In this document: positions 1,123-12,788 of the stretch, one piece after another | How the letters are laid out: each line of letters begins with the position of its first letter | Numbering within the stretch: position 1 is the first letter of the stretch | Virus record (IMG/VR): IMGVR_UViG_3300044645_001931 | Direction: 5' to 3' (one strand) | DNA length: 20,000 nucleotides | Origin: an uncultured virus (IMG/VR IMGVR_UViG_3300044645_001931) | Lineage: Duplodnaviria > Heunggongvirae > Uroviricota > Caudoviricetes | Translations under genes and position numbers: made by a program | Notes under the pieces: generated by a model | What the model was told of the DNA's origin: nothing | Seen by the model: the letters and a program-made list of their open reading frames with translations, nothing else | Database searches by the model: none

Positions 1123-1782
1123 ATGTCGGATTTTTCGCGTGCTATTAACCTAATTCGTAAATACGAAGGGTTTAACGAAAAGGCATACGCAGATCCGCAC
1201 ACTGGCGCAGAGCCATACACCATCGGGTTTGGAACCCAGTTCTATCCCGATGGTTCCCCCGTCAAGCAAGGTCAGCGTTGCAGCCAGGAGAAAGCTCTTG
1301 CGTACCTCTTCCATGAGGTCAGCGTCATTGAGTCCCAGCTCCAGCGGCAGAACCTTGGTCTTGACGACAACATGCGCCAGGCTCTAGTCTCGTTCATTCA
1401 TTCCGTTGGTTGGGAGTCCTTCTTGTACAGCCACATCATTGATCATGTGGAAGCAGAGGATTTTGCTAGTGCCACCACGGAAATGAGCCGCTGGATCTTT
1501 GACCAAAACCATAAGGTTGTTGGTGGTCTCCTGGAACGCAGGAGAGAAGAGATGGGTCTTTTCCTTCGTGACGTAGACACCAGCCCTTGGGCATCAACAG
1601 AAGTCTTGTTGACCGCCTTCCGTAATTACAGTGCTGCTCCCCACGAAGTACGCGCAATCCGTGCTCTGGAGGAACGTATCAATCCTTACATCCTGTCTGA
1701 GTTTGCCAACAGTTTTCGTATTGATGACGACCGATGGCAGGACTTTGCCGATGAGTCCGTCGATCTGATATTTAACGGCTAG
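1123..1782 (+). CDS. Phage lysozyme (GH24 muramidase) with a C-terminal extension
   Basis: LIRKYEGFNEKAYADPHTGAEPYTIGFG gives the GH24 E-x8-D...T catalytic pattern; also ALVSF..VG and GLLERRREE. ATG 1123 preferred over the ORF-track start at 1099. Confidence 0.9.
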   Translation: MSDFSRAINLIRKYEGFNEKAYADPHTGAEPYTIGFGTQFYPDGSPVKQGQRCSQEKALAYLFHEVSVIESQLQRQNLGLDDNMRQALVSFIHSVGWESFLYSHIIDHVEAEDFASATTEMSRWIFDQNHKVVGGLLERRREEMGLFLRDVDTSPWASTEVLLTAFRNYSAAPHEVRAIRALEERINPYILSEFANSFRIDDDRWQDFADESVDLIFNG

Positions 1783-1806
1783 CATTAGAATAATTGCAAC
1801 TAGCAA

Positions 1807-2112
1807 ATGCAGAGTGGAATGGAGCGTTCGGTCGAGCCACGGGAGTTTGAACTTCCTCTTGAGCTTCAATTTGCCATGCGCAAAGCTGAACTCCAGTCCG
1901 AGGAAATGACTTGGGAAGAGTTGCGTTTTGCTTTGTTGAGTCTCTACCACCAACGTTTGATGGAGTGGCATGCCATCAAAGACATCATGGCGTCAGAAAA
2001 CATTGAGATCGACTGGGATCATCCAACCGACCTCGAATTAGCAGAACTCGCCGCTGCCTGTGGATATCGCGACGACGACGAGGATGATGACGATGAACTT
2101 CAGCCCTTCTGA
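1807..2112 (+). CDS. nblA: NblA-like phycobilisome degradation adaptor with an acidic C-terminal extension (start 1807 or 1819)
   Basis: ELPLELQFAMRKAELQSEEMTWEELRFALLSLYHQ matches, without gaps, the NblA pattern as I recall it (EL.LEQQF..R....Q...M.......L..LY.Q). Own -10 box TAGAAT at 1786-1791. Confidence 0.7.
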   Translation: MQSGMERSVEPREFELPLELQFAMRKAELQSEEMTWEELRFALLSLYHQRLMEWHAIKDIMASENIEIDWDHPTDLELAELAAACGYRDDDEDDDDELQPF

Positions 2113-2591
2113 GCTTCGTCAAGTTGAATGAGGCGGTCCAGATACCACTGAGCTTTCTTCAGTGATTCTGTTCCGCCTTTGTGGCGTTCACGCCAGGTGT
2201 ACTTTAAATTGTTTCCCTTACAGTAACCACGGAATTCTTCGGCGGTTAAAGCTGCTTCAATGGCTTCAATGCATTCAATGCCGCCATCTGTGTAGTGAGC
2301 GGGGTGATTCACCACATCTTCTTGGGCCACAGGAGGCTTTTCTTTGGTGGCCCAGGGCACTGGGCAAACACCTCCAGGGCAGTCACTTACTTCATCTACC
2401 GGAGCAAACCACGACGTTTTGCTGACAGCATCCGTTCCTTCTCGTCCGGTTCCTCCAGTTCCAACACCAGCGTCCTTGGTTTCGGAGATGCTCCCATCGC
2501 CAAACCCTGCTCCATTGAGGGGATATAGCCCGTCATTCCAGGCCGTTGTCCCTCGAGATTCAACGGATTCCTTTCTAGCCCCTGCTCGCAT
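2100..2591 (-). CDS. DUF3310 (SaV-like / T7 gp1.7-related) protein with an upstream CPGGVCPVPW motif; start uncertain (ATG 2591 or GTG 2360)
   Basis: DVVNHPAHYTDGGIECIEAIEA...GYCKGNNLKYTWR...KGGTESLKKAQWYLDRL is the DUF3310 signature. Confidence 0.85.
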   Translation of the reverse strand: MRAGARKESVESRGTTAWNDGLYPLNGAGFGDGSISETKDAGVGTGGTGREGTDAVSKTSWFAPVDEVSDCPGGVCPVPWATKEKPPVAQEDVVNHPAHYTDGGIECIEAIEAALTAEEFRGYCKGNNLKYTWRERHKGGTESLKKAQWYLDRLIQLDEAQKG

Positions 2592-2740
2592 GCTACTAGA
2601 CCGCGATTGTACATGTCATACAATGGTACATCATTTTGCTCGTTATCGAGAGGTGCGCCAAAATCTTCTTCATCAAGACAACGACATTTAACTTCGTCTT
2701 GTACAAAGGCGTCTAAGAAACCTGCAGCGGAATTCATCAC
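2396..2740 (-). CDS. Hypothetical protein
   Basis: 114-aa ORF with protein-like composition, divergent from the 2776 gene. Overlaps the long form of the DUF3310 ORF in another frame. Confidence 0.65.
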   Translation of the reverse strand: MMNSAAGFLDAFVQDEVKCRCLDEEDFGAPLDNEQNDVPLYDMYNRGLVACEQGLERNPLNLEGQRPGMTGYIPSMEQGLAMGASPKPRTLVLELEEPDEKERMLSAKRRGLLR

Positions 2741-2775
2741 GGCTTTAATCGATTTAGTCCTTTTACAATGATAAG

Positions 2776-3102
2776 ATGGCTAACCGATTTAGACCTACTT
2801 ACGATCCAGGCGTCGACTCTGGTACTTCTGGAGCTGAGGTATCAGATCTTAATCCGGAACAGGCATATGACACTGACTTGCGACGTATTGATGGAGATGC
2901 CCGTGGCTCTACTGCATCCGTTAATCGTCAGCAAGGTCGTGTAGCTAAATTCATGCGTGCCGCAAAAACCGCTGGTGAATACCAAAAACGCAACTTAGTG
3001 CGTGAACCAACCAGTGCAACGGCAGGTGATTCGGGTGGGCGTGCCGGATCTATTGGCTACGCCCGTAAACCGAAAGAGCAGTTTGGTAAAGCCTTTGGTT
3101 AA
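2776..3102 (+). CDS. Hypothetical protein, probably leaderless
   Basis: 108-aa ORF filling the gap between two minus-strand blocks. TACAAT at 2764-2769 ends 6 nt before the ATG. Confidence 0.75.
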   Translation: MANRFRPTYDPGVDSGTSGAEVSDLNPEQAYDTDLRRIDGDARGSTASVNRQQGRVAKFMRAAKTAGEYQKRNLVREPTSATAGDSGGRAGSIGYARKPKEQFGKAFG

Positions 3103-3686
3103 ACCTGAGAAAAGACCACGTTGTTTGGTTGGTCTTGGTACTTACCCTTCCGATCTTGGTACGTGGTATGACAAGGATTACCACGATAGAAGAGCAGTTG
3201 CGTAATCCCTTCATTTGCATAGATGCGATTGAAGAGCCCAGTGCAATTACTGATTTCAAGCGTCAAGTAACCTTCCCATCCACTTTCGGCTGGCGTAATG
3301 TTGACCAGGATACCTGAACGTGCGTAAGTAGATTTACCAACGGCAACGACGGTGACATCACGAGGAAGCTTCAGACGTTCTTGAGCAACGCCAAGACAAT
3401 AGCCATACGGAGGAAGTAAGAAATACTGACCGCGTTCATCCTCCAGAAGATCTGCAGGTTTCAGGATGTCAGGATCAAAGTTCTTTGGATCACAATCACC
3501 AGCTTGTACCTTGCCAAAGATCAGGCATTGTGCAGGAGACAAACGGATGTCATAGCCGTAAGAGCTAAGACCATAGCTAAGAAGCTTGCGTCCATCTTCT
3601 TTGTTGACCAAATGATCCACAAAGGGTTCGATCATCTGGTCGTCTTCCGCCAGTTGCTTGATCTCCCAGTCGGCCAGGACGCTCAT
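3099..3686 (-). CDS. dcd: dCTP deaminase
   Basis: SYGLSSYGYDIRL, GKSTYARSG, TPAESGWEGYLTLEISN, IYANEGITQLLF and Y.DRKGKYQ.Q motifs of the trimeric dCTP deaminase family. Confidence 0.95.
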   Translation of the reverse strand: MSVLADWEIKQLAEDDQMIEPFVDHLVNKEDGRKLLSYGLSSYGYDIRLSPAQCLIFGKVQAGDCDPKNFDPDILKPADLLEDERGQYFLLPPYGYCLGVAQERLKLPRDVTVVAVGKSTYARSGILVNITPAESGWEGYLTLEISNCTGLFNRIYANEGITQLLFYRGNPCHTTYQDRKGKYQDQPNNVVFSQV

Positions 3687-3719
3687 AAATCCCTGTAATC
3701 GTCCTTCAGTCTACAGAGA

Positions 3720-4316
3720 TTACACAAGAAGGTGTCCGCGCTCCCCATAAATTTTTACGAAAGAATCCACGGCATCACCAGAGGAATCCTGTGGTGGCAG
3801 GTACACAAGAAATGAGGTGCATGTGCGTTTCCTGTTTACCTCTCCGTCTTTGTGGCACATGACATAAGGTGCACTTCGTAAAATGCACATCGGAAACTTA
3901 AAGATCTTGGGCTCGTAACGAATCATGTCAGGGCAGTTGCTGAAATAAAGACCTTGCTTTATTTCTTTTGAAAGCCATGCATGGTACATTCTGCGGAACC
4001 AAACGGCATGGGACGATGTCAGGGTCAACGAAGAAGCCCTTGTCATCTTCCATTTTTCATGCTTTTGATCCCAAAAGTAGGCACCCGCTGGTGGAAACAG
4101 GTAACAACTTCCGTGCCATTGTTGTGCATTCAAGCCATCATCCGTTGGTGTGTAATAGTTCTCTGCTTCGATATACTCATTGGCAACTTTGGAACTAGCC
4201 ACATCAAGAGTGATGCCACCCAACAGCTCGTTGGCAGCAAGTACCAAGTCTTTATTGGTGATTAACTCGACACCTTCATTGCGAGCTGCAACGCCACGTA
4301 CGCCTTTTTCAGCCAT
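3720..4316 (-). CDS. Phage Dam-like DNA N6-adenine methyltransferase homologue with a variant catalytic motif (FPPA instead of NPPY)
   Basis: ITLDVASSKVAN..I.A.NYYT..DDGL..Q.W.GSCYLFPP follows the phage Dam-family layout (LD.AS...AN....YYT..DDGL...W.G.V..NPPY). Confidence 0.7.
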   Translation of the reverse strand: MAEKGVRGVAARNEGVELITNKDLVLAANELLGGITLDVASSKVANEYIEAENYYTPTDDGLNAQQWHGSCYLFPPAGAYFWDQKHEKWKMTRASSLTLTSSHAVWFRRMYHAWLSKEIKQGLYFSNCPDMIRYEPKIFKFPMCILRSAPYVMCHKDGEVNRKRTCTSFLVYLPPQDSSGDAVDSFVKIYGERGHLLV

Positions 4317-4699
4317 TACTCTGCAGTCTTGTTGTAATCAATCTCGAAATAACGCATACCTTCATCATCATTGATGATATAACCTGCTTTTTCCGTTGGA
4401 TCGATCTTTTGTGCTGCTCCAAGGATGCGCCTAAAAGTTTCAGCTAGATCACCGTCGTTATTCCGCTCACAATCTTCTTGCGCCGCATGGAGCTCTTTTA
4501 AAGTCCAAAAGAACATAGAGCGTTTTTTGTTGCGTGGCTGGAACACCATGACACCTGGGCCTTCAATCTCCCACATCTTGCAGTATTGCTCGCCCATATC
4601 ACCAAGAATTAACTTGATTGTTGCATCAAGCATCTTGGCTTTTTTTTCATCAAGCTCTGGTCCAATCACAGAAGCAATTAGTTTTTCACGTCGATCCAT
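4316..4699 (-). CDS. Hypothetical protein
   Basis: 127-aa ORF, TAATG-coupled to the methyltransferase-like gene and overlapping the upstream gene. Confidence 0.8.
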   Translation of the reverse strand: MDRREKLIASVIGPELDEKKAKMLDATIKLILGDMGEQYCKMWEIEGPGVMVFQPRNKKRSMFFWTLKELHAAQEDCERNNDGDLAETFRRILGAAQKIDPTEKAGYIINDDEGMRYFEIDYNKTAE

Positions 4700-5153
4700 C
4701 TTTTAACAATCCTTGTCGGTGTAATGATTCCAGGAGCTTAGGCGTTGGTTGGTACAGTACAACCAATTTGCCTAGTACTCCACGTTTTTTAACAAGTTTT
4801 CCGTTTTCATCCCTTACCTTATCAAATTCTCCAGACCGGATAAGGTATTCAGCCACGCAACGTAACCTTCGTTTCAAAGGCAGTTCTGCTTGGGGGAATT
4901 TGCCGCAGATTGTATCTGCGTTCAGATCATGGAATGCAAGACGTAATCGATTGGCAAGAGTCATACCAGAATTGGCGTCCTCTTCTTCGTAGTTTTTTAG
5001 GTTTTCTAGGTACCTGCGCAGGCAGCCATCATCAAATGATCCAATGGGTGGCAAGAACATCTCCACTTGTCTGATCAACGATTCGGGCAGCATTTCCTCA
5101 TGGTTCTCAACCGTTACAGAACCAAGATCAATTCCCTGGAAACGATGAGCCAT
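4686..5153 (-). CDS. Hypothetical protein; basic C-terminus suggests DNA binding
   Basis: 155-aa ORF, TAATG-coupled to the HTH gene. RRLRCVAEYLIRSGEFDKV followed by a basic beta-hairpin-like segment (weak wHTH resemblance only). Confidence 0.75.
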   Translation of the reverse strand: MAHRFQGIDLGSVTVENHEEMLPESLIRQVEMFLPPIGSFDDGCLRRYLENLKNYEEEDANSGMTLANRLRLAFHDLNADTICGKFPQAELPLKRRLRCVAEYLIRSGEFDKVRDENGKLVKKRGVLGKLVVLYQPTPKLLESLHRQGLLKDGST

Positions 5154-5563
5154 TATTCAAGGAAGCCCCGATTGTTTTTGTATTGGTCATAATGTGCCCG
5201 TAGATTTTTTAAATCCAGGTTTTCGTTCTTGGCAAAGGATTGGATCAGTCGATTCCAAGGGATCCGGAGGACTGCTTTGCGGTGTACATCAGGAGAAACA
5301 TTGACATAATGGATGCCCTCTACCCAGCCTTTATCTGGGGTTTTTCTTCCGATAGAAATCCAGTTACGGATGGTTTGGTCTGAGACGCCCAGGCGTTTAC
5401 CACATTCTTCTGTCGAGATGTACTCATCGGCAAAAGCCTCTGGATTTAATGCGTCCGTTTCCCCAGTTGAATAACGGCTGTGCCACATCGAACCAAGGAT
5501 ATTCTTAATGCCTTTTAGCTCGTACGCAATATCCTCTAAGCTTTTGCGTAGTCCGTACTGCAT
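5153..5563 (-). CDS. Helix-turn-helix DNA-binding protein (MerR/excisionase-like)
   Basis: YISTEECGKRLGVSDQTIRNWI..G is a MerR/Xis-type HTH, followed by W.EG.HY. ATG 5563 chosen because AAGGA and a TAACAT box lie upstream; the ORF-track start at 5656 overlaps the divergent gene. Confidence 0.8.
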   Translation of the reverse strand: MQYGLRKSLEDIAYELKGIKNILGSMWHSRYSTGETDALNPEAFADEYISTEECGKRLGVSDQTIRNWISIGRKTPDKGWVEGIHYVNVSPDVHRKAVLRIPWNRLIQSFAKNENLDLKNLRAHYDQYKNNRGFLE

Positions 5564-5583
5564 ACTGCACATCCTTTGTTTAT

Positions 5584-5593
5584 ATGTTAGTCT
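5584..5593. promoter_or_regulatory. Overlapping divergent -10 boxes
   Basis: TAGTCT (5588-5593, +) lies 21 nt before ATG 5615; TAACAT (5584-5589, -) lies 20 nt before ATG 5563. Confidence 0.5.
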
Positions 5594-5614
5594 TTGGGAA
5601 AACAATTTGCGACC

Positions 5615-5914
5615 ATGGAAGAGCAGATTCCCCCTAGTCAGCCACCAATGCCCCAAACACTAGAAGGGCAGATCACACCTGAGATGCTTGCGCAGATGAA
5701 GACTAGGGCACGTGAGCTTGCCATTCAACAAACCATTGCACAGCAAGCAGTAATTCCACAACAGCAACCTCAGGTTGTTTATGTGCGACGCAATTTAACA
5801 GTCGCTGAAATTCTGTTGGTTATCCTGCTTTCCTGCGGGATTGTCACAGGAATCCAATGGTCCTGGAACATTGTAACGAATGTTTTGCCACGTGTTGAGA
5901 TTAAGGTGCGCTAA
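5615..5914 (+). CDS. Small membrane protein: Pro/Gln-rich N-terminus and a C-terminal hydrophobic helix
   Basis: LTVAEILLVILLSCGIVTGIQWSW is a probable transmembrane segment. TGnTAGTCT box at 5585-5593. Confidence 0.75.
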   Translation: MEEQIPPSQPPMPQTLEGQITPEMLAQMKTRARELAIQQTIAQQAVIPQQQPQVVYVRRNLTVAEILLVILLSCGIVTGIQWSWNIVTNVLPRVEIKVR

Positions 5915-5957
5915 ATAAGCCCATTTATAATGAAGAGAAAGCTTGAGAAATAAGTAG

Positions 5958-7748
5958 GTGTCAAACCGTAGGATCAGTGAATTCCCTGCCATCAGTGGGG
6001 GCGAGATCGATGAACAGGACCTGCTAACGCTCGTCCATGTCTTCGAGGTTGACCCCACTTTACGCAACAAAAAAATTACCTTTACTCAATTCAAAGAATA
6101 TCTTAATGAGTATTACGCACCTGCCAGTGGCGCAACCTTCAGTGGTAACGTCACAATCTCAGGGAACCTAACGGTTTCTGGCACTAGCTCATTCAATTCA
6201 ATTACAGCTTCTGGATCTAGTACATTCAGTGGCATTGTAGTTCAAAATAATGCGGTTATTAGTGGTACCGTCAGTGGTCTGACCATTACCGGAACCAACG
6301 TACAAGGCACCAATGTCAACGCAGTCACTGCCACGGTTACGACCGCAACAGGTACGACAAGTGCTTTTACGTCTGGCGTTTATCAAAACCTATCAGGTGC
6401 CACGATTACAGGTGGTATTGTCCGCTCGCCATCTGGTGTATTCACAAATCTGAGCGGTGTCACAATCACTGGTACTACCGTCGCAGCAACCACAGGTACG
6501 TTCCAGGTCCTTGGTACGCCTGTACTGGATGTAAACGGTAATCTTTCCGTTGCTAGCGGACTGACGGTTACTGGCACTGCTCAATTTAGTAACGGTGTTC
6601 AGGTCACAGGAACATTATCTGGAACAACAGTAACTGGATCTACGGCACAATTCACAAGTGTCACTGGTGTATCGGGTGTTTTCACAACACAGTTATCTGG
6701 CGCAACCATTACCGGAAATACGGTACAAACTGCTAATCTCACAGGTGTTTCCGGTACTTTCACAACCAGGGTTTCTGGTGCAACCGTAACAGGCAATACG
6801 GGTGCCTTTGGTAACGTCTCTGGTATCTCTGGTGTTTTTACACAGTTCCTTTCGGGTGCAGTCATTACTGGTGACACCGGACAATACACAACACTGACTG
6901 GTGTATCCGGTACATTCACCAGAGTTTCTGGTGCAACAGTCACTGGTAACACAGTTGCCGCAACGATTGTTTCTGGTGTATCCGGTGTCTTTACTAGTCA
7001 GTTATCGGCCACCACAATTACCGGTGCCTCAGGTGTTTTTACAAACCTGACGAGTACGTCCGGGACATTTACCACTCAAGTTTCAGGCGCAACCGTTACC
7101 GGTAACATTGGTACTTTTACTTCCCTGACGGGAGCAACCGGTACATTTACCACACATGTTTCCGGTCTGCTTGTCACAGGAGACACTGGCAGTTTCACGA
7201 ATCTGACCGGTATCGCAGGCGTTTTCACCACCAGTGTTTCTGGGGCCACAATCACTGGTAATACGATCCAAGGTACGTCTGGCGTCTTTACCAATCTTAG
7301 TGGTACGACGTACACAGGAACAACAGTCAATGCAACGACAGGTATTTTCCAAACACTTGCGGCAATTAACCTTGCTTTTACTAACACGACAGTATCAGGT
7401 GACCTTAATGTCCTTGGTTCTGGTTTTTTTGCTTCTGGTGTTCAGATTACCGGTACCCTTAGTGGCACAACAATTACAGGTACTACGGTTCAAGCAGTCA
7501 CAACCTCCGCAACAACTGGGACATTTATTTCATTAACAGGAACAACAACCACAGGTGTTACTGCAACATTTACAACTGTTTCTGGTGTAACAGTTACTGG
7601 TGCAACCGGTACGTTTACAAACATCACTGGGAGCACGCTTAGGATAACCACGCCATCTGGCGCAACGCCTGCCATTGTGTGTTCTGGCGTTGTTTCCGGT
7701 AGCGCAAGTGGGTTTGTAATCCAAGGTCCACTAATCATTCTTCCGTAA
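5958..7748 (+). CDS. Thr/Gly/Ser-rich repeat fibre protein (putative tail or virion fibre)
   Basis: GTG start; N-terminus RRISEFPAI...DLL..V...NKKITF is typical of phage fibre anchors. It is followed by ~500 nearly uncharged residues with SG.FT...SGAT.TG repeats. Confidence 0.8.
   Translation: MSNRRISEFPAISGGEIDEQDLLTLVHVFEVDPTLRNKKITFTQFKEYLNEYYAPASGATFSGNVTISGNLTVSGTSSFNSITASGSSTFSGIVVQNNAVISGTVSGLTITGTNVQGTNVNAVTATVTTATGTTSAFTSGVYQNLSGATITGGIVRSPSGVFTNLSGVTITGTTVAATTGTFQVLGTPVLDVNGNLSVASGLTVTGTAQFSNGVQVTGTLSGTTVTGSTAQFTSVTGVSGVFTTQLSGATITGNTVQTANLTGVSGTFTTRVSGATVTGNTGAFGNVSGISGVFTQFLSGAVITGDTGQYTTLTGVSGTFTRVSGATVTGNTVAATIVSGVSGVFTSQLSATTITGASGVFTNLTSTSGTFTTQVSGATVTGNIGTFTSLTGATGTFTTHVSGLLVTGDTGSFTNLTGIAGVFTTSVSGATITGNTIQGTSGVFTNLSGTTYTGTTVNATTGIFQTLAAINLAFTNTTVSGDLNVLGSGFFASGVQITGTLSGTTITGTTVQAVTTSATTGTFISLTGTTTTGVTATFTTVSGVTVTGATGTFTNITGSTLRITTPSGATPAIVCSGVVSGSASGFVIQGPLIILP
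6663..7320 (+). repeat. Coding tandem repeat, ~26 aa (78 nt) unit, about 8 degenerate copies
   Basis: Units such as TGVSGVFTTQLSGATITGNTVQTANL / TGVSGTFTTRVSGATVTGNTGAFGNV / SGISGVFTQFLSGAVITGDTGQYTTL. Boundaries approximate. Confidence 0.85.
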
Positions 7749-7784
7749 TTTTCTCGGCTAAAATAAACAAAAAGAGACAACAAA

Positions 7785-10508
7785 ATGGCTTACGGAATTT
7801 TAAAGTGTGACACTATTACCTTTACTAGCGATGGTGTTGATAAAAGCGTTGCAATTTCTGGTTTAGTTCAGAATCCTACCTTTACAGGAAACGTAACAGT
7901 AACCGGAACTATCTCTGGTAATACCGTACGGGGTCAAACAATTTCAGGTGTTACCGTTACTGGAACAACCGCTCAGTTTACCAGTGGAACTTTTGCTTCA
8001 TTAACAGGGGTTACTGTTACGGGCACTACTGCAAACTTTACTAGCGGTAACTTCACTAACATCAGCGGTGGTACTCACACCATTACATCGGGTGTATTTG
8101 CGTCAGGTACGGCAGCAAATCCATCGATTAGTTTTGTTTCTGACCCAAATTCTGGACTATACTCCCCCGGTGCAGATCAAGTAGCCATCTCGACTAGTGG
8201 CACTGGGAGGTTGTTTATTAATGCAACTGGACAAGTAGGCATTGGAGGTTCGCCAAGCTCTAATTTTGAAATAACTTCTGCTTTGCCTACCGCAAGGTTG
8301 CGCGACACAACAGACAACTCTTACGCCGAAATACTTAACAACAACGGAGCGCTTTCCCTTCGAGCTGATGAAGGCAATGTTGCTAGCGCATCATATATTG
8401 ACATTCGTGTTGATGGTTCCGAGCGTGCTCGGTTTACTTCTGATGGCCGCTTAGGTCTGGGGACTAGTAGCCCTGCAACTCCAATTGAAGTTGTCGGAGC
8501 AAGTACGACAGACACTGAAGAGAATTACGCCTTATTCAGGGGTCCCGGTACATCTCAACCAGGTGTTTATATAGGAGGTAATTCTACAACAGCATCTACA
8601 GGCGCCACGGCTAGATATGGTTATGTACGCTCTCAAAGTCTTGGTGGCACTGCCCGTGCCCTGTATCTACAGACCGGGACGGACACGCGAGTCGTTATTG
8701 ATAACACAGGGAAAGTAGGGATTGGCACTACGAGTCCTGTAAATCTTTTACATGTCCAAGGCGACGCAACGTTTGAACAAAACGCCGGAGGTCAGTTTGC
8801 AATTCGCGGCAGCACAAACACTGCCAATCGTTTGAATTTTGGTTTTGAAACAACAAATAATTACGCCTGGATTCAATCAATTACAGCAGGGACCGCGTTT
8901 CGGCCAATCGCATTAAACCCCTCAGGAGGCAACGTAGGGATTGGCACTACGAGCCCTGGCCATGCGTTGCACGTAAGCAACGGAAACGACTCGGCTTCTG
9001 GCGAATTTGTTGGTATTACGATAGGCGGTACAAATAGCGCAAATGCCCGGACTGGTTCAATCATAAAAGATACGACTACGTTTGATTTAATTTACAAAAA
9101 TCAGAACTTTAGCTCTGCTCTGGGCGCTCATGTGTTTAGAAATGGCCCTAGTGAGCACGCCCGCATCGACAGCTCCGGCAGGCTCTTAGTTGGCACGTCT
9201 AATGCGCGTACAAACTTTAGAAATTCCACAATTAGCGCTCAGTTACAGGTCGAAAGTACAACTACTTCTCTTAGCTCTGCTGCGCTCATTGCTAATGGTA
9301 GTGCCTCAAGCGCTAATCCCTATCCAAATTTATTTTTAGCCAGGAGCCGTGGAGCCCTTGGTACGAATGTTGTTGTTGCCGCTAATGACATATTGGGCGG
9401 CGTTTCATATCAAGGAAATGATGGCTCCGAATTTGTCGAGGCTGGGCTGATTACTTGTGAAGTAGACGGCACCCCCGGCGCTAACGACATGCCGGGCAGG
9501 CTGGTCTTTTCTACCACTCTTGATGGTGCATCAAGTCCGACGGAGCGGATGAGAATTACATCGGCAGGCAACGTAGGGATTGGCACTACTGGGCCTCAGT
9601 CGCTATTGCATGTGCAACAAAGCGCTGATGGCGAGATATTCCGACTTCAGAGAGCAGGTGGAACAAATATCCCTATTCTTCGCGTAAATCTTACCGATTC
9701 CACCAAGACAGCAGAGTTTGAGTACACGGGGTCGGATGCTAACGGCAATATTGCTTTCAAGAGCGGCGGTTCAGAACGCGCCCGCATCGACAGCTCCGGC
9801 AGGCTCTTAGTTGGCACGTCTAGTGCGCTTGCTGCAGGCGGATCAACTCCTCATGTTCAGCTAGTCGGAGATGCAGGAGTAGCCTGGCAGTCAATTATTC
9901 GCACAAACGCAACTACAGCAGGTTCAAACTTAGTCTTAGGCCAGACAAGAGGTTCTATTGCGTCTAGGACGATAGCGCAGAATAATGATGTACTTTCTAA
10001 TATTCTTTTTGTTGCAGATGATGGCATAGACCTTAATACAATTGCTGCATCAATAAAAGCCGAAGTAGACGGCACCCCCGGCGCTAATGATATGCCGGGT
10101 CGTTTAGTGTTCTTCACTACCGCCGACGGAGCGAGCAGCCCGACGGAGCGTTTTCGTATTACCAACGACGGCGTTAAAGCTTACGACCAACCTGCCCCCG
10201 CTGCTGTCAACGCCACTGCAACATTAACTGTTGCCAACCTCAAAACCGGCATTATCACTAGCACGTCGGCACTAGCAACCGACATGACGCTGCCCACTGG
10301 CACCGACACTCAAGCTGGTTTTAATGGCACCTATGACAACTTCACATTTGAGTGGAGCGTCATCAACACAGGTCTTAGCCTGGTACGCGTACTTGCTGGC
10401 ACTGCTCACACCATCGTCGGCTCTGGCTCTGTTGTTACTGGCACCTCTGGTCGCTTTGCTTCACGACGCACGGCTGCCAACACGTTTGTGACCTATCGCC
10501 TGAGCTAG
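7785..10508 (+). CDS. Long modular tail-fibre / receptor-binding protein
   Basis: Recurring GNVGIGTTSP, ERARIDSSGRLLVGTS and VDGTPGANDMPGRLVF junction motifs; GTAANPSISF.SD.NSGLYSPGADQ motif; 907 aa. Confidence 0.9.
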   Translation: MAYGILKCDTITFTSDGVDKSVAISGLVQNPTFTGNVTVTGTISGNTVRGQTISGVTVTGTTAQFTSGTFASLTGVTVTGTTANFTSGNFTNISGGTHTITSGVFASGTAANPSISFVSDPNSGLYSPGADQVAISTSGTGRLFINATGQVGIGGSPSSNFEITSALPTARLRDTTDNSYAEILNNNGALSLRADEGNVASASYIDIRVDGSERARFTSDGRLGLGTSSPATPIEVVGASTTDTEENYALFRGPGTSQPGVYIGGNSTTASTGATARYGYVRSQSLGGTARALYLQTGTDTRVVIDNTGKVGIGTTSPVNLLHVQGDATFEQNAGGQFAIRGSTNTANRLNFGFETTNNYAWIQSITAGTAFRPIALNPSGGNVGIGTTSPGHALHVSNGNDSASGEFVGITIGGTNSANARTGSIIKDTTTFDLIYKNQNFSSALGAHVFRNGPSEHARIDSSGRLLVGTSNARTNFRNSTISAQLQVESTTTSLSSAALIANGSASSANPYPNLFLARSRGALGTNVVVAANDILGGVSYQGNDGSEFVEAGLITCEVDGTPGANDMPGRLVFSTTLDGASSPTERMRITSAGNVGIGTTGPQSLLHVQQSADGEIFRLQRAGGTNIPILRVNLTDSTKTAEFEYTGSDANGNIAFKSGGSERARIDSSGRLLVGTSSALAAGGSTPHVQLVGDAGVAWQSIIRTNATTAGSNLVLGQTRGSIASRTIAQNNDVLSNILFVADDGIDLNTIAASIKAEVDGTPGANDMPGRLVFFTTADGASSPTERFRITNDGVKAYDQPAPAAVNATATLTVANLKTGIITSTSALATDMTLPTGTDTQAGFNGTYDNFTFEWSVINTGLSLVRVLAGTAHTIVGSGSVVTGTSGRFASRRTAANTFVTYRLS
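9158..9822 (+). repeat. Exact 44-nt direct repeat inside the fibre gene (9158-9201 = 9779-9822)
   Basis: cgcccgcatcgacagctccggcaggctcttagttggcacgtcta occurs twice. Other exact pairs: 26 nt at 9459-9484/10062-10087 and 24 nt at 8927-8950/9566-9589. Confidence 0.95.
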
Positions 10509-10628
10509 TAGTCCTACTCACTAATCACACCTGGTAAAATAAAAGAAAACATCATTGATTGTAGAGCTGATGGGAGAAGAGTGGCTTGAAGACTATCGCC
10601 GCCAGTTCCCTTAATCCACGTCTTTTCT

Positions 10629-10784
10629 ATGTCTGAACACGACTGGCTTGAACCGCTTGATCGTCGAATCAAACAGGTGCAAGAAGAAACAGAAGCTATT
10701 AAAAAAGAAACTGCTGCGTTGGCTGCTTTGGATCGCCTCTATAAAGAAAACGGTAATGGTATGAAGAGACTTGCTGATAGCTAG
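10629..10784 (+). CDS. Small coiled-coil-like protein MSEHDWLEPLDRRIKQVQEETEAIKKETAALAALDRLYKENGNGMKRLADS (51 aa; not in ORF track)
   Basis: Translated by hand; helical, charged composition; lies between the two promoter repeats. Confidence 0.65.
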   Translation: MSEHDWLEPLDRRIKQVQEETEAIKKETAALAALDRLYKENGNGMKRLADS

Positions 10785-10807
10785 TAACCGTCTTCATTGA
10801 TCACCCC

Positions 10808-10816
10808 TGGTAAAAT
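10808..10816 (+). promoter_or_regulatory. Extended -10 promoter TGGTAAAAT (second copy at 10532-10540)
   Basis: TGnTAnAAT consensus 20 nt before ATG 10837. Confidence 0.65.
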
Positions 10817-10836
10817 AAAAGAAAATATCATTAACT

Positions 10837-11160
10837 ATGGCCAACACTGTTTGGGATATTGCCAACCTCGAACGTCATCTTCCTGATGGTGACACCTGTC
10901 CTGATGGCGCTGTATACACCATCCATTGGACTGCATCCCTCGAGGAAGACGGTGAAACCGCCAGTTGTTACGGCAGCGTTGGCCTTGGTGAACCCGACCC
11001 TGATAACTTCACTCCTTTTAGTGAACTCACTAAAGAAGAAGCGGTGAACTGGACCTTGGCAGCACTTGGCGTTGATCAAGTTGTTTCGATTGAAGAAGCA
11101 TTGCACAATCAAATCCAAGCCAAACTGCATCCAACTTCTGAATCTGGCGTTCCCTGGTGA
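10837..11160 (+). CDS. Conserved tail-fibre-associated protein (putative fibre assembly factor)
   Basis: W.I.NLER..DG.V..IHW ... YGSVGL ... F.PF.ELT...V.W ... I.....P...GVPW pattern, typically found right after phage fibre genes. Confidence 0.8.
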   Translation: MANTVWDIANLERHLPDGDTCPDGAVYTIHWTASLEEDGETASCYGSVGLGEPDPDNFTPFSELTKEEAVNWTLAALGVDQVVSIEEALHNQIQAKLHPTSESGVPW

Positions 11161-11194
11161 TTTTTGTTATACTCTTTGAAGTTATCTGTTCATT

Positions 11195-11374
11195 ATGGCT
11201 TGCACAAAGTCTCAGCTAGTTAGCGCCATTAATTCCTTTGGTTCTGCACGTGCTACTGGTGACGGCAACCTCATTGCCTTTTCCGCAAACCTCATTGGTC
11301 AATTGATTGATACGATTGAGTTTGCTCCAGAGGAAGAGACCCAAGCTGAAGAAAAGGTTGAAACAGAAGAGTAA
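11195..11374 (+). CDS. Small protein MACTKSQLVSAINSFGSARATGDGNLIAFSANLIGQLIDTIEFAPEEETQAEEKVETEE (59 aa; not in ORF track)
   Basis: Translated by hand; fills the gap exactly. TGnTATACT box at 11165-11173. Confidence 0.75.
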   Translation: MACTKSQLVSAINSFGSARATGDGNLIAFSANLIGQLIDTIEFAPEEETQAEEKVETEE

Positions 11375-11449
11375 TCAACAGCATCGGGTACGTGAATCCC
11401 AAGTAGTTTATTGACCTGATTTAGAGTAATACAAAAGCTCTAGGTCGAT

Positions 11450-12460
11450 ATGTCAATCAAGCTCACGGACGCTGCTAAGTTCTTTGTAGAAGAACCGCAT
11501 CAAATTGACGCATGGAATTGGCTCCAGTCTCAGTTAACACCTGAGACACTGGAGTCTTTTTCTGTTAAATACCGCAATAAACCAAAACCTCAACCAGAAA
11601 CCGCCAACACTTGGGACGGTGTTCTTGCAGCAGCAAAACAAGCGGGTGCTAAATGGCCTGAATGTGTTGCTGCACAGTGGGCCCTTGAGTCGGGCTGGGG
11701 TAAACACACATCAGGTGTTAATAATTACTTTGGTTTAAAAGGATCTGGCTCTAACGTTAGTACTCAAGAATTCATTAACGGTCAATGGGTCACAATCAAA
11801 GCTGGCTTTATTGATTTTCCCAACCTACAAACCTGTGTTTGTTACCTTGTTGATCGCTGGTACAAAGACTTTGGGCGCTTCAAAGGCGTGAACCGTGCCT
11901 CTAGCAGGAATGAATGCGCTCGTTTACTAGTAAAAGAAGGCTACGCAACTGATCCTGACTACGCCACTAAGTTGATTCAGATCATGGATCGACAGCTCCA
12001 GAACATTGGAGAAAAAGAAGAGGTCAACCCACACAACAACAATTTCAATCCTTGGAGCCCTTTCACGTACAAGATCACGCCTAACATCACGTACGGTGAA
12101 TTAACTTTGAACCAGGAAGCTCGACGTTTTACGAAGCAATATCAATGCGACACAGCAAAAGAACTGTGTTTATTCCTTGAGAAAGTACGTAAGCAGTTTG
12201 GTAATAAGCCATTGATCATTACCAGTGCTTCTCGTCCAGAGCCTATTAACACACAAGTAGGAGGTACTAAAAACAGTGAGCACACCTATAGTGCTCCTTC
12301 CAAGGGAGCTATCGACTTTTACGTTGATGGGGTCAGTGTCTACACTGTGCAAGACTGGTGTGACAAAAACTGGCCTTACTCGCTAGGATATGGTGCACCA
12401 AAAGGATTCGTGCATCTTGGTATTAGAGAAGGCAAACCACGCGTACGCTGGGATTACTGA
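11450..12460 (+). CDS. Multidomain endolysin: N-terminal helical module + GH73 (FlgJ-like glucosaminidase) + peptidase M15
   Basis: AQWALESGWGK, NNYFGLKG and GYATDPDYATKL (GH73); ITSASRPEPIN..VGG...SEH, AIDF and FVHLG (M15 zinc ligands H, D, H). Confidence 0.9.
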   Translation: MSIKLTDAAKFFVEEPHQIDAWNWLQSQLTPETLESFSVKYRNKPKPQPETANTWDGVLAAAKQAGAKWPECVAAQWALESGWGKHTSGVNNYFGLKGSGSNVSTQEFINGQWVTIKAGFIDFPNLQTCVCYLVDRWYKDFGRFKGVNRASSRNECARLLVKEGYATDPDYATKLIQIMDRQLQNIGEKEEVNPHNNNFNPWSPFTYKITPNITYGELTLNQEARRFTKQYQCDTAKELCLFLEKVRKQFGNKPLIITSASRPEPINTQVGGTKNSEHTYSAPSKGAIDFYVDGVSVYTVQDWCDKNWPYSLGYGAPKGFVHLGIREGKPRVRWDY

Positions 12461-12623: not shown

Positions 12624-12788
12624 TCAACGCTGTTTAGTACGACCAATAACAAGACCACCAATTTCAATGATCCGATAAAGCTTGCGCACAAGTTTATCGT
12701 CTTTAGGTGTCGGGGTTAAAGCGCAGATAGCAGAACAAGCAGCATGAATAGCCAGTGCTACTTCTAAATACTCATTAAAGGAATGCAT
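12624..12788 (-). CDS. Holin-like small membrane protein MHSFNEYLEVALAIHAACSAICALTPTPKDDKLVRKLYRIIEIGGLVIGRTKQR (54 aa; not in ORF track)
   Basis: Hydrophobic helix + ALTPTPKDD turn + amphipathic basic helix, a common phage holin-like pattern. GGGAG ribosome-binding site and TACAAT box (12809-12814, minus strand) upstream. Confidence 0.7.
   Translation of the reverse strand: MHSFNEYLEVALAIHAACSAICALTPTPKDDKLVRKLYRIIEIGGLVIGRTKQR

What the first reader, a model, noticed from the sequence alone, without database searches (positions are those of the whole stretch)
1606..11575. Two unrelated lysins share an unnamed ~38-aa helical module (C-terminal on GH24, N-terminal on GH73-M15)
Seen: 1606-1719 encodes LLTAFRNYSAAPHEVRAIRALEERINPYILSEFANSFR and 11462-11575 encodes LTDAAKFFVEEPHQIDAWNWLQSQLTPETLESFSVKYR. 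Ungapped they share 10/38 identities (L..A.......PH...A...L.....P..L..F...R) plus conservative swaps. The catalytic domains are unrelated and 10 kb apart. Inference: a mobile accessory domain of cyanophage lysins, for example a binding module for cyanobacterial cell wall, an export/holin-docking tag, or a heterodimerisation handle joining three hydrolase activities. I do not recognise it as LysM, SH3b or PG_binding_1.
Basis: partly seen in the sequence, partly recalled or inferred. Interest (0 to 1): 0.8.

Follow-up and report, generated by a model that had tools for sequence, protein, structure and literature searches.

The report
Unnamed cyanobacterial lysin accessory module
Two unrelated wall-digesting enzymes of this cyanobacterial virus carry the same small, uncatalogued helical piece, which recurs on many wall enzymes of cyanobacteria and their viruses and probably helps them grip the cyanobacterial cell wall.

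Summary
The two segments are copies of one 41-residue three-helix module. The pairwise match is weak (p=0.012), but a profile built only from cyanobacterial chromosomal copies finds both (50.6 and 25.7 bits, next 6.5). The window is an S-EIV1-like Synechococcus phage.

The module defines 570 protein clusters. It sits N-terminally, internally or C-terminally, in 1-5 copies, on GH24, GH25, GH73, GH19, GH108, amidase, M15, C39 and YkuD domains. Named carriers above chance level were all cyanobacteria or Synechococcus phages. No Pfam, NCBIfam or PDB match covers it; profile tests against SLH, CW_7 and PG_binding_1 were negative.

AlphaFold suggests that a lone module is an open half-domain and two fold into one six-helix unit. 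Best reading (0.55): a cyanobacterial wall-binding module that works in pairs. An export tag is less likely, because signal-peptide proteins carry it too. A heterodimer of the two lysins (0.15) is unproven but fits fused GH24-module-module-M15 lysins in other phages. No binding was shown.

The parts
1123..1782 (+). GH24 lysozyme gene, 219 aa: catalytic domain, linker, module, acidic tail
   Evidence: PF00959 E 7e-22; start at ATG 1123 matches the S-EIV1 orthologue; the Glu, Asp and Thr at the expected catalytic positions are kept in 55 of 55 distinct family sequences
1159..1551 (+). GH24 (Phage_lysozyme) catalytic domain
   Evidence: residues 21-151 of the 227-aa ORF counted from 1099
1597..1719 (+). 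Module copy B (C-terminal, divergent subtype)
   Evidence: 25.7 bits with host-only HMM; mean pairwise identity 0.87 and pooled dN/dS 0.04 over 55 sequences, against 0.82 and 0.085 for the catalytic domain
1720..1779 (+). Acidic, poorly conserved C-terminal tail
   Evidence: mean pairwise identity 0.56
11450..12460 (+). Module-GH73-M15 lysin gene, 336 aa, just after tail-fibre genes
   Evidence: phrog_10051 endolysin; upstream ORF 7785-10508 matches tail-fibre PHROGs
11453..11575 (+). Module copy A (N-terminal, close to the family norm)
   Evidence: 50.6 bits with host-only HMM; AlphaFold2 pLDDT 95.9, helices 5-10, 16-28, 31-42
11576..11608 (+). Pro/Lys-rich linker
   Evidence: sequence; variable among relatives
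11630..11992 (+). GH73 glucosaminidase domain
   Evidence: PF01832 E 3e-19
12083..12418 (+). Peptidase M15 domain (replaced by a C39-like domain in S-EIV1 and many relatives)
   Evidence: PF08291 E 9e-16

Best explanation
The module is an uncatalogued cell-envelope-binding unit of cyanobacterial peptidoglycan enzymes. SHOWN: one homologous 41-residue helical module is shuffled among at least nine unrelated wall-enzyme domains, at any position, in 1-5 copies, in cyanobacteria and Synechococcus phages. MODEL-BASED: two modules fold together into one six-helix unit, so tandem copies pair within a chain and single-copy lysins such as these two would pair between chains. INFERRED: the unit binds cyanobacterial peptidoglycan or its attached polysaccharide through conserved aromatic and polar residues, holding the enzyme on its substrate at lysis.
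For: Of the 150 listed representatives, 81 (those of 122 aa or more, except P0099) were scanned: 59 have a Pfam hit, and 53 of these 59 carry a peptidoglycan-acting or peptidoglycan-binding domain (48 if the 5 with only a C39-like domain are set aside; my count). Cultured phages show module-GH19, module-C39, GH73-module-C39, GH24-module-C39, YkuD-module-GH19 and GH24-module. Chromosomal carriers: GH25-PG_binding_1-(module)1-5, Amidase_2-PG_binding_1-module-PG_binding_1, module-C39. Tandem arrays mostly have a 46-52 residue period and follow Pro/Thr linkers, the usual anatomy of wall-binding repeats (established knowledge). Copies lie on proteins with hydrophobic N-termini (P0197, P0216, P0232, P0311, P0322) and behind the membrane helix of a RodZ-like protein (P0194), so the module can work outside the cytoplasm. 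Conserved columns in 210 copies: Q17 97%, A20 98%, L24 98%, F36 95%, W/Y40 97%, R41 94%, Y11 79%, H16 67%, W/Y23 77%. Taxonomic range: 10 of 30 clusters looked up had an organism name, all cyanobacterial; 18 of 20 and 19 of 20 phage records are Synechococcus phages, the others at E 4-9; 4 of 4 plasmids are cyanobacterial; 0 of 121 genomes of another sampled class of the phylum. Synechocystis peptidoglycan carries a pyruvylated polysaccharide, a possible lineage-specific ligand (bioRxiv 10.1101/2020.03.24.006684, passages). Pairing: the three-repeat model has pTM 0.64, first-linker block pLDDT 90 against 66 for the second; repeats 1+2 align as one unit to single six-helix domains over 65-87 residues while repeat 3 matches the same open shapes as the monomer.
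Against: No binding was measured and no ligand identified. 6 of the 59 annotated carriers have no wall-enzyme or wall-binding domain (trypsin-like proteases, Pilin_GH, HTH_25, Ephrin_rec_like). Many host carriers already have PG_binding_1 and show no signal peptide, which a binding role does not explain. Only 29 of 301 sampled genomes of the phylum carry it, all of 4.7 Mb or more. Pairing rests on one AlphaFold model whose coordinates I did not see. Odd copy numbers are common (1 copy in 25 of 61 apparently complete representatives; 3 copies in 15 of 31 host ORFs) and repeats show no period-2 pattern (9 of 17 proteins). Copy B departs from the family at positions 6, 17 and 23, so it may not bind the same thing.
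Confidence: 0.55

Rival explanations
1. Pure oligomerisation handle. The module only pairs, without touching the wall. In S-EIV1-like phages the pair is split over two genes, so GH24 and GH73-M15/C39 assemble into one three-activity lysin.
For: Model-based pairing. Fused forms exist: GH24-module-module-M15 (P0206, P0211) and GH24-module-module-C39 (P0196, P0208); the window holds the two halves in matching orientation. Exactly two copies in 5 of 5 S-EIV1-like records, 1 of 1 and 2 of 3 (in the third the GH24 gene lies at the contig end). Copy B is under strong purifying selection although it lost family residues.
Against: 5 of 5 unrelated cultured phages have a single copy, so heteropairing is not general. 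Arrays of 4-5 copies make little sense for a simple handle. Restriction to cyanobacteria is unexplained by a generic dimer. The two genes are 10 kb apart with oppositely oriented genes between them. The tandem copies in the fused lysins do not score as B-like.
Confidence: 0.2
2. Export or holin-docking tag that moves leaderless hydrolases across the cyanobacterial inner membrane.
For: Neither window lysin has a hydrophobic N-terminus, nor have most host GH25, amidase and PG_binding_1 carriers. No holin family was found among the window ORFs scanned. A short domain of another fold has been proposed as such a tag (broken-hairpin, PMC12419801 section 31).
Against: Copies on proteins with N-terminal signal-like segments or behind a membrane helix, and copies buried between two domains (S-CRES1, S-CBS2, B23, L257, L258).
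Confidence: 0.12
3. Amphipathic membrane-binding segment that helps the enzyme cross or cling to the outer membrane.
For: Three amphipathic helices rich in Trp and Tyr; present on apparently secreted lysozymes that would attack from outside (P0197, P0199, P0204).
Against: Not cationic: copy A has 4 K/R against 6 D/E, copy B 5 against 5. Near-invariant Gln, Ala and Arg suggest a specific fold or ligand rather than bulk lipid binding.
Confidence: 0.08
4. Chance likeness of two amphipathic helices, or a structural spacer.
For: BLASTP misses it; whole-protein shuffle p is only 0.012.
Against: Independent profile tests with decoys; purifying selection; 570 clusters.
Confidence: 0.03

Closest known systems
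CW_7 / Cpl-7 repeats (PF08230)
   Same: About 40 residues, three helices, tandem repeats on lysins (description of CW_7 recalled; model length).
   Different: No profile similarity (0.12%, score 6.2, inside shuffles; only 3 CW_7 rows). Different conserved residues; cyanobacterial range; predicted open shape that pairs.
PG_binding_1 (PF01471)
   Same: Small helical accessory domain of Gram-negative lysins.
   Different: Occurs beside the module as a separate domain in the same proteins; hhalign 0.16%.
SLH domain (PF00395)
   Same: Short helical repeats that assemble into a larger unit and bind the peptidoglycan-linked polysaccharide, also in cyanobacteria (PMC6081394 seen only as listing and abstract start).
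   Different: hhalign 0.5%, score 9.3, inside column shuffles of 4.9-14.1. SLH works as three repeats; this is modelled as two.
Multi-subunit lysins such as PlyC of streptococcal phage C1 (recalled, no call)
   Same: Lysin activities on separate polypeptides joined through a small domain, as in the heterodimer reading.
   Different: Those are Gram-positive systems with other folds; nothing here shows assembly.
Synechococcus phage S-EIV1 (KJ410740) AHV82244 and AHV82130
   Same: Same two genes, similar gene order, both module copies.
   Different: Annotated only as lysozyme and hypothetical protein; a C39-like domain stands where the window has M15.

Membership tests
PG_binding_1 (PF01471) | Match to the Pfam model or profile similarity | tested here: not met
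   0 of 17 and 0 of 31 copies match at E up to 10; hhalign 0.16% against 15 host PG_binding_1 stretches
PG_binding_1 (PF01471) | Fold | tested here: inconclusive
   Not among the listed VIA or Foldseek rows; an unlisted family is not excluded
SLH (PF00395) | Profile similarity and the TRAE-type motif | tested here: not met
   27 cyanobacterial SLH rows, hhalign 0.5%, within shuffles; the motif visible in those rows is absent from the module columns
SLH (PF00395) | Binding to pyruvylated wall polysaccharide | not testable with these tools
   needs a binding assay
CW_7 (PF08230) | Match to the Pfam model or profile similarity | tested here: not met
   no Pfam match; hhalign 0.12% against 3 rows
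CW_7 (PF08230) | Compact three-helix fold | tested here: inconclusive
   three helices predicted; best VIA Z 3.8, CW_7 not listed
LysM / SH3b | Beta strands in the fold and Pfam match | tested here: not met
   all-helical models at pLDDT 96 and 90; no Pfam match
Death-domain superfamily (PYD, DED, CARD) | Six-helix fold at significant structural similarity | tested here: inconclusive
   best Z 4.7, rmsd 3.4, 77 aligned: common arrangement only, below the tool's stated bar for helical bundles
Cell-wall-binding domains of modular lysins (functional class) | Mobile, repeatable accessory domain fused to unrelated catalytic domains | tested here: met
Cell-wall-binding domains of modular lysins (functional class) | Measured binding to a wall component | not testable with these tools
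   needs GFP-fusion or pull-down assay

The most novel reading that the evidence does not exclude
The module is a cyanobacteria-specific half-domain of a fold not yet solved; two halves form the wall-binding unit. S-EIV1-like phages split the pair over two distant genes, so a muramidase and a glucosaminidase-endopeptidase click together into one hetero-lysin, a multi-gene lysin in a phage of a Gram-negative host. The same unit has been borrowed by secreted lysozymes of probably eukaryotic organisms that attack cyanobacteria from outside.
Probability: 0.15. Interest if true: 0.85.

Novelty: new variant of a known kind. Interest (0 to 1): 0.62.

Why it matters
How cyanophage lysins recognise the cyanobacterial wall is little studied, and the literature searches here found no cyanobacteria-specific lysin binding domain. 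A 41-residue module shared by podo-, sipho- and myoviruses of Synechococcus and by host wall enzymes gives a direct probe (a GFP fusion) for a lineage-specific wall feature, a marker for assigning unclassified viral contigs to cyanobacterial hosts, and a new domain model that annotates about 570 protein clusters. If it pairs between chains it would also explain why one phage lineage keeps two lysin genes with one copy each.

Tried and rejected
Complex prediction of copy A with copy B: no answer, score 0.27 under the mark of 0.32, controls not folded; it is evidence neither for nor against binding. Foldseek on the monomer: 0 PDB matches, 0 significant BFVD matches; on the three-repeat model 0 at E<=0.001. 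VIA-align wide: best Z 3.8 and 4.7, none at Z 5 or more among 48,161 chains; absence does not show a new fold. PDB sequence search with alignment A1: 4 hits, best E 0.13. NCBIfam, 15 proteins: no model covers a whole module copy; only weak partial overlaps below cut-off. PHROGs: 1 of 31 copies matches an unnamed family at E 0.007; the module is buried inside endolysin family phrog_10051. ESM Atlas: no usable feature hit; structure hits are lysin clusters, one cyanobacterial amidase cluster and short unrelated matches. Test for period-2 repeat structure: negative; first-versus-second repeat identity differs by under 1 point (0.359 vs 0.353), which relatedness can explain. P0296 (4834 aa, 11 partial stretches) was dropped as a likely false hit before the profile. 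Promoter and terminator scan around the second lysin: nothing above shuffles. No whole genome is held for the window. Earlier scan notes: nothing. Literature: 9 searches listed no paper describing such a module; the library lacks most subscription papers, the original S-EIV1 paper did not appear in the listings, and no supplements were read.
Full report
Setting. The window is a stretch of a Synechococcus phage related to S-EIV1. Both module queries hit KJ410740 best, and the order lysozyme, small genes, dCTP deaminase, then a DUF7936 gene and a lysin is shared. ORF 1123-1782 is a GH24 lysozyme whose expected catalytic Glu, Asp and Thr are kept in 55 of 55 family sequences. ORF 11450-12460 has a GH73 and an M15 domain.

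Observation. The translations and the 10 of 38 identities are right. As a pair the match is borderline: BLASTP misses it and a whole-protein shuffle gives p=0.012. Profiles make it certain. Separate alignments of the two subtypes match at 97.3%, E 1.7e-11. A model without GH24 C-terminal rows finds 57 of 57 such ORFs at 18.8-33.6 bits against 9.0 for the best decoy. A model from 75 copies in cyanobacterial genomes finds both window copies at 50.6 and 25.7 bits; the next window hit is 6.5. The GH24 copy is no relic: identity 0.87 and pooled dN/dS 0.04 in the module against 0.82 and 0.085 in the catalytic domain (rough pooled counts on related sequences).

A mobile module. In cultured phages it is N-terminal to GH73-C39 (S-EIV1), GH19-like domains (7B11-B by a weak Pfam hit; P60 and S-CBP42 by visible likeness, no Pfam hit), C39 (S-CBP2) and GH73 (S-SRP01); internal in GH73-module-C39 (S-CRES1), GH24-module-C39 (S-CBS2) and YkuD-module-GH19 (B23); and C-terminal on GH24 (S-EIV1, window). 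A profile search of 1.84 billion representatives gave 570 clusters at E<=0.001 and 157 at E<=1e-10. Of the 150 listed I scanned 81 (122 aa or more, except P0099). 59 have a Pfam hit; 53 of these have a peptidoglycan-acting or -binding domain (GH24, GH25, GH73, GH19, GH108, M15, YkuD, C39-like, PG_binding_1), 48 without the C39-only ones; 6 have others (trypsin-like, Pilin_GH, HTH_25, Ephrin_rec_like) (my count). Copies come in 1-5 tandem repeats, mostly 46-52 residues apart.

Not phage-only. 10 of 30 clusters looked up carried an organism name and all are cyanobacteria: Phormidium, Halomicronema, Kamptonema, Tumidithrix, Pseudanabaenaceae, Symploca, Thermosynechococcaceae, Leptolyngbyaceae, Calothrix, Microcoleus/Richelia. 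29 of 301 sampled genomes of the phylum match, all of 4.7 Mb or more; 0 of 121 in the class of G040, an unnamed class that I take to be another one. The commonest host form is GH25-PG_binding_1-Pro/Thr linker-(module)1-5 among ordinary chromosomal genes. Among 50,697 phage records, 18 of 20 and 19 of 20 matches are Synechococcus phages and the rest are at E 4-9; 4 of 4 plasmid matches are cyanobacterial.

Structure. The monomer folds at pLDDT 95.9 into three helices. No solved fold matches well: best Z 3.8, the top rows being open or dimer-forming helical pieces such as liprin H2H3, the beta-TrCP D domain and HMG boxes. A three-repeat host segment folds at pLDDT 89.8 and pTM 0.64, with an ordered first linker. 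In the structure search repeats 1+2 align together onto single six-helix domains (Z<=4.7, no sign of kinship), and repeat 3 alone gives the monomer's hits. I read this as a half-domain that pairs. It is an inference from one model without access to coordinates. Against it, odd copy numbers are common and no period-2 pattern shows.

How it likely works. Shown: homology, mobility, repetition, association with wall enzymes, cyanobacterial range. Modelled: pairing. Inferred: binding. Promiscuous fusion, tandem repeats, Pro/Thr linkers and conserved Tyr, His, Gln, Trp and Arg are the usual marks of lysin wall-binding domains (established knowledge). Copies on signal-peptide proteins and behind the membrane helix of a RodZ-like protein place it outside the cytoplasm and argue against an export tag. 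A lineage-specific ligand is available: Synechocystis peptidoglycan carries a pyruvylated polysaccharide bound by SLH domains (bioRxiv 10.1101/2020.03.24.006684; I saw passages). I give wall binding 0.55, pure oligomerisation 0.2, export tag 0.12, membrane binding 0.08, artefact 0.03.

The two-lysin question. Other phage-like proteins have GH24-module-module-M15 or -C39 in one chain (P0196, P0206, P0208, P0211). The window has what looks like the two halves, and S-EIV1-like records have exactly these two copies (5 of 5, 1 of 1, 2 of 3 with one cut at the contig end). That fits a heterodimer. But 5 of 5 unrelated phages manage with one copy, the fused tandem copies are not B-like, and homodimers would do as well. 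It stays a bold, testable possibility (0.15).

Comparison with known families. No Pfam model matches 17 or 31 copies at a meaningful level; no NCBIfam model covers it; no PDB sequence. Profile tests against SLH, PG_binding_1 and CW_7 are within shuffle noise; the fold tests are inconclusive. It works like a lysin wall-binding repeat but is not shown to belong to a named family.

Literature. Nine searches listed nothing that describes the module. I saw passages of PMC5017753 (cyanophage endolysin survey by known Pfam domains), passages and section 31 of PMC12419801 (the broken-hairpin domain is a beta-hairpin, not this) and the abstract and outline of PMC9096620; all other papers only as listings. 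PlyC and the general properties of CW_7, LysM and SH3b are recalled. No supplements were read, and subscription papers were not searchable, so a prior mention cannot be excluded.

Verdict. Real feature; an uncatalogued domain family of a known functional kind with a possible twist (pairing half-domain, cyanobacterial range). Interest 0.62.

Noticed in passing
P0197, P0199, P0204, P0209: Lysozyme-like proteins with two modules; the first three begin with a signal-peptide-like segment. P0209's GH25 is closest to PDB 6zm8 (281 bits) and 2x8r, which I recall as fungal enzymes. They may be secreted lysozymes of eukaryotes that feed on or parasitise cyanobacteria; origin not established.
   Followed up: partly
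P0331: 972-aa protein with three or more diverged modules followed by cysteine-rich Ephrin_rec_like repeats, a eukaryote-type architecture; possibly a receptor for cyanobacterial prey.
   Followed up: no
P0194: RodZ-like HTH, one membrane helix, Pro/Thr linker and three modules in place of the usual periplasmic domain.
   Followed up: partly
L224-L258: Chromosomal GH25, amidase and PG_binding_1 proteins without a signal peptide in large-genome cyanobacteria; how they reach the wall is unexplained.
   Followed up: no
window 1807-2112 (+): 101-aa ORF directly after the GH24 gene with a weak NblA match (18.6 bits, below the cut-off of 25) and an acidic tail; possible phycobilisome-degradation gene.
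   Followed up: no
window 12624-12788 (-): 54-aa ORF with one hydrophobic helix (phrog_9685) near the second lysin on the opposite strand; a holin or spanin candidate at best.
   Followed up: no
window 10837-11160 (+): DUF7936 gene; its S-EIV1 orthologue is annotated 'lysozyme' in GenBank although it has no lysozyme domain.
   Followed up: partly
MW015080 42245-42304 (S-SRP01): A 20-residue fragment of the module in a 27-codon frame upstream of the intact lysin; looks like a remnant of a duplication or swap.
   Followed up: no
window 12083-12418 and relatives: The C-terminal peptidase swaps between M15 and C39-like domains among close relatives while module and GH73 stay fixed.
   Followed up: partly
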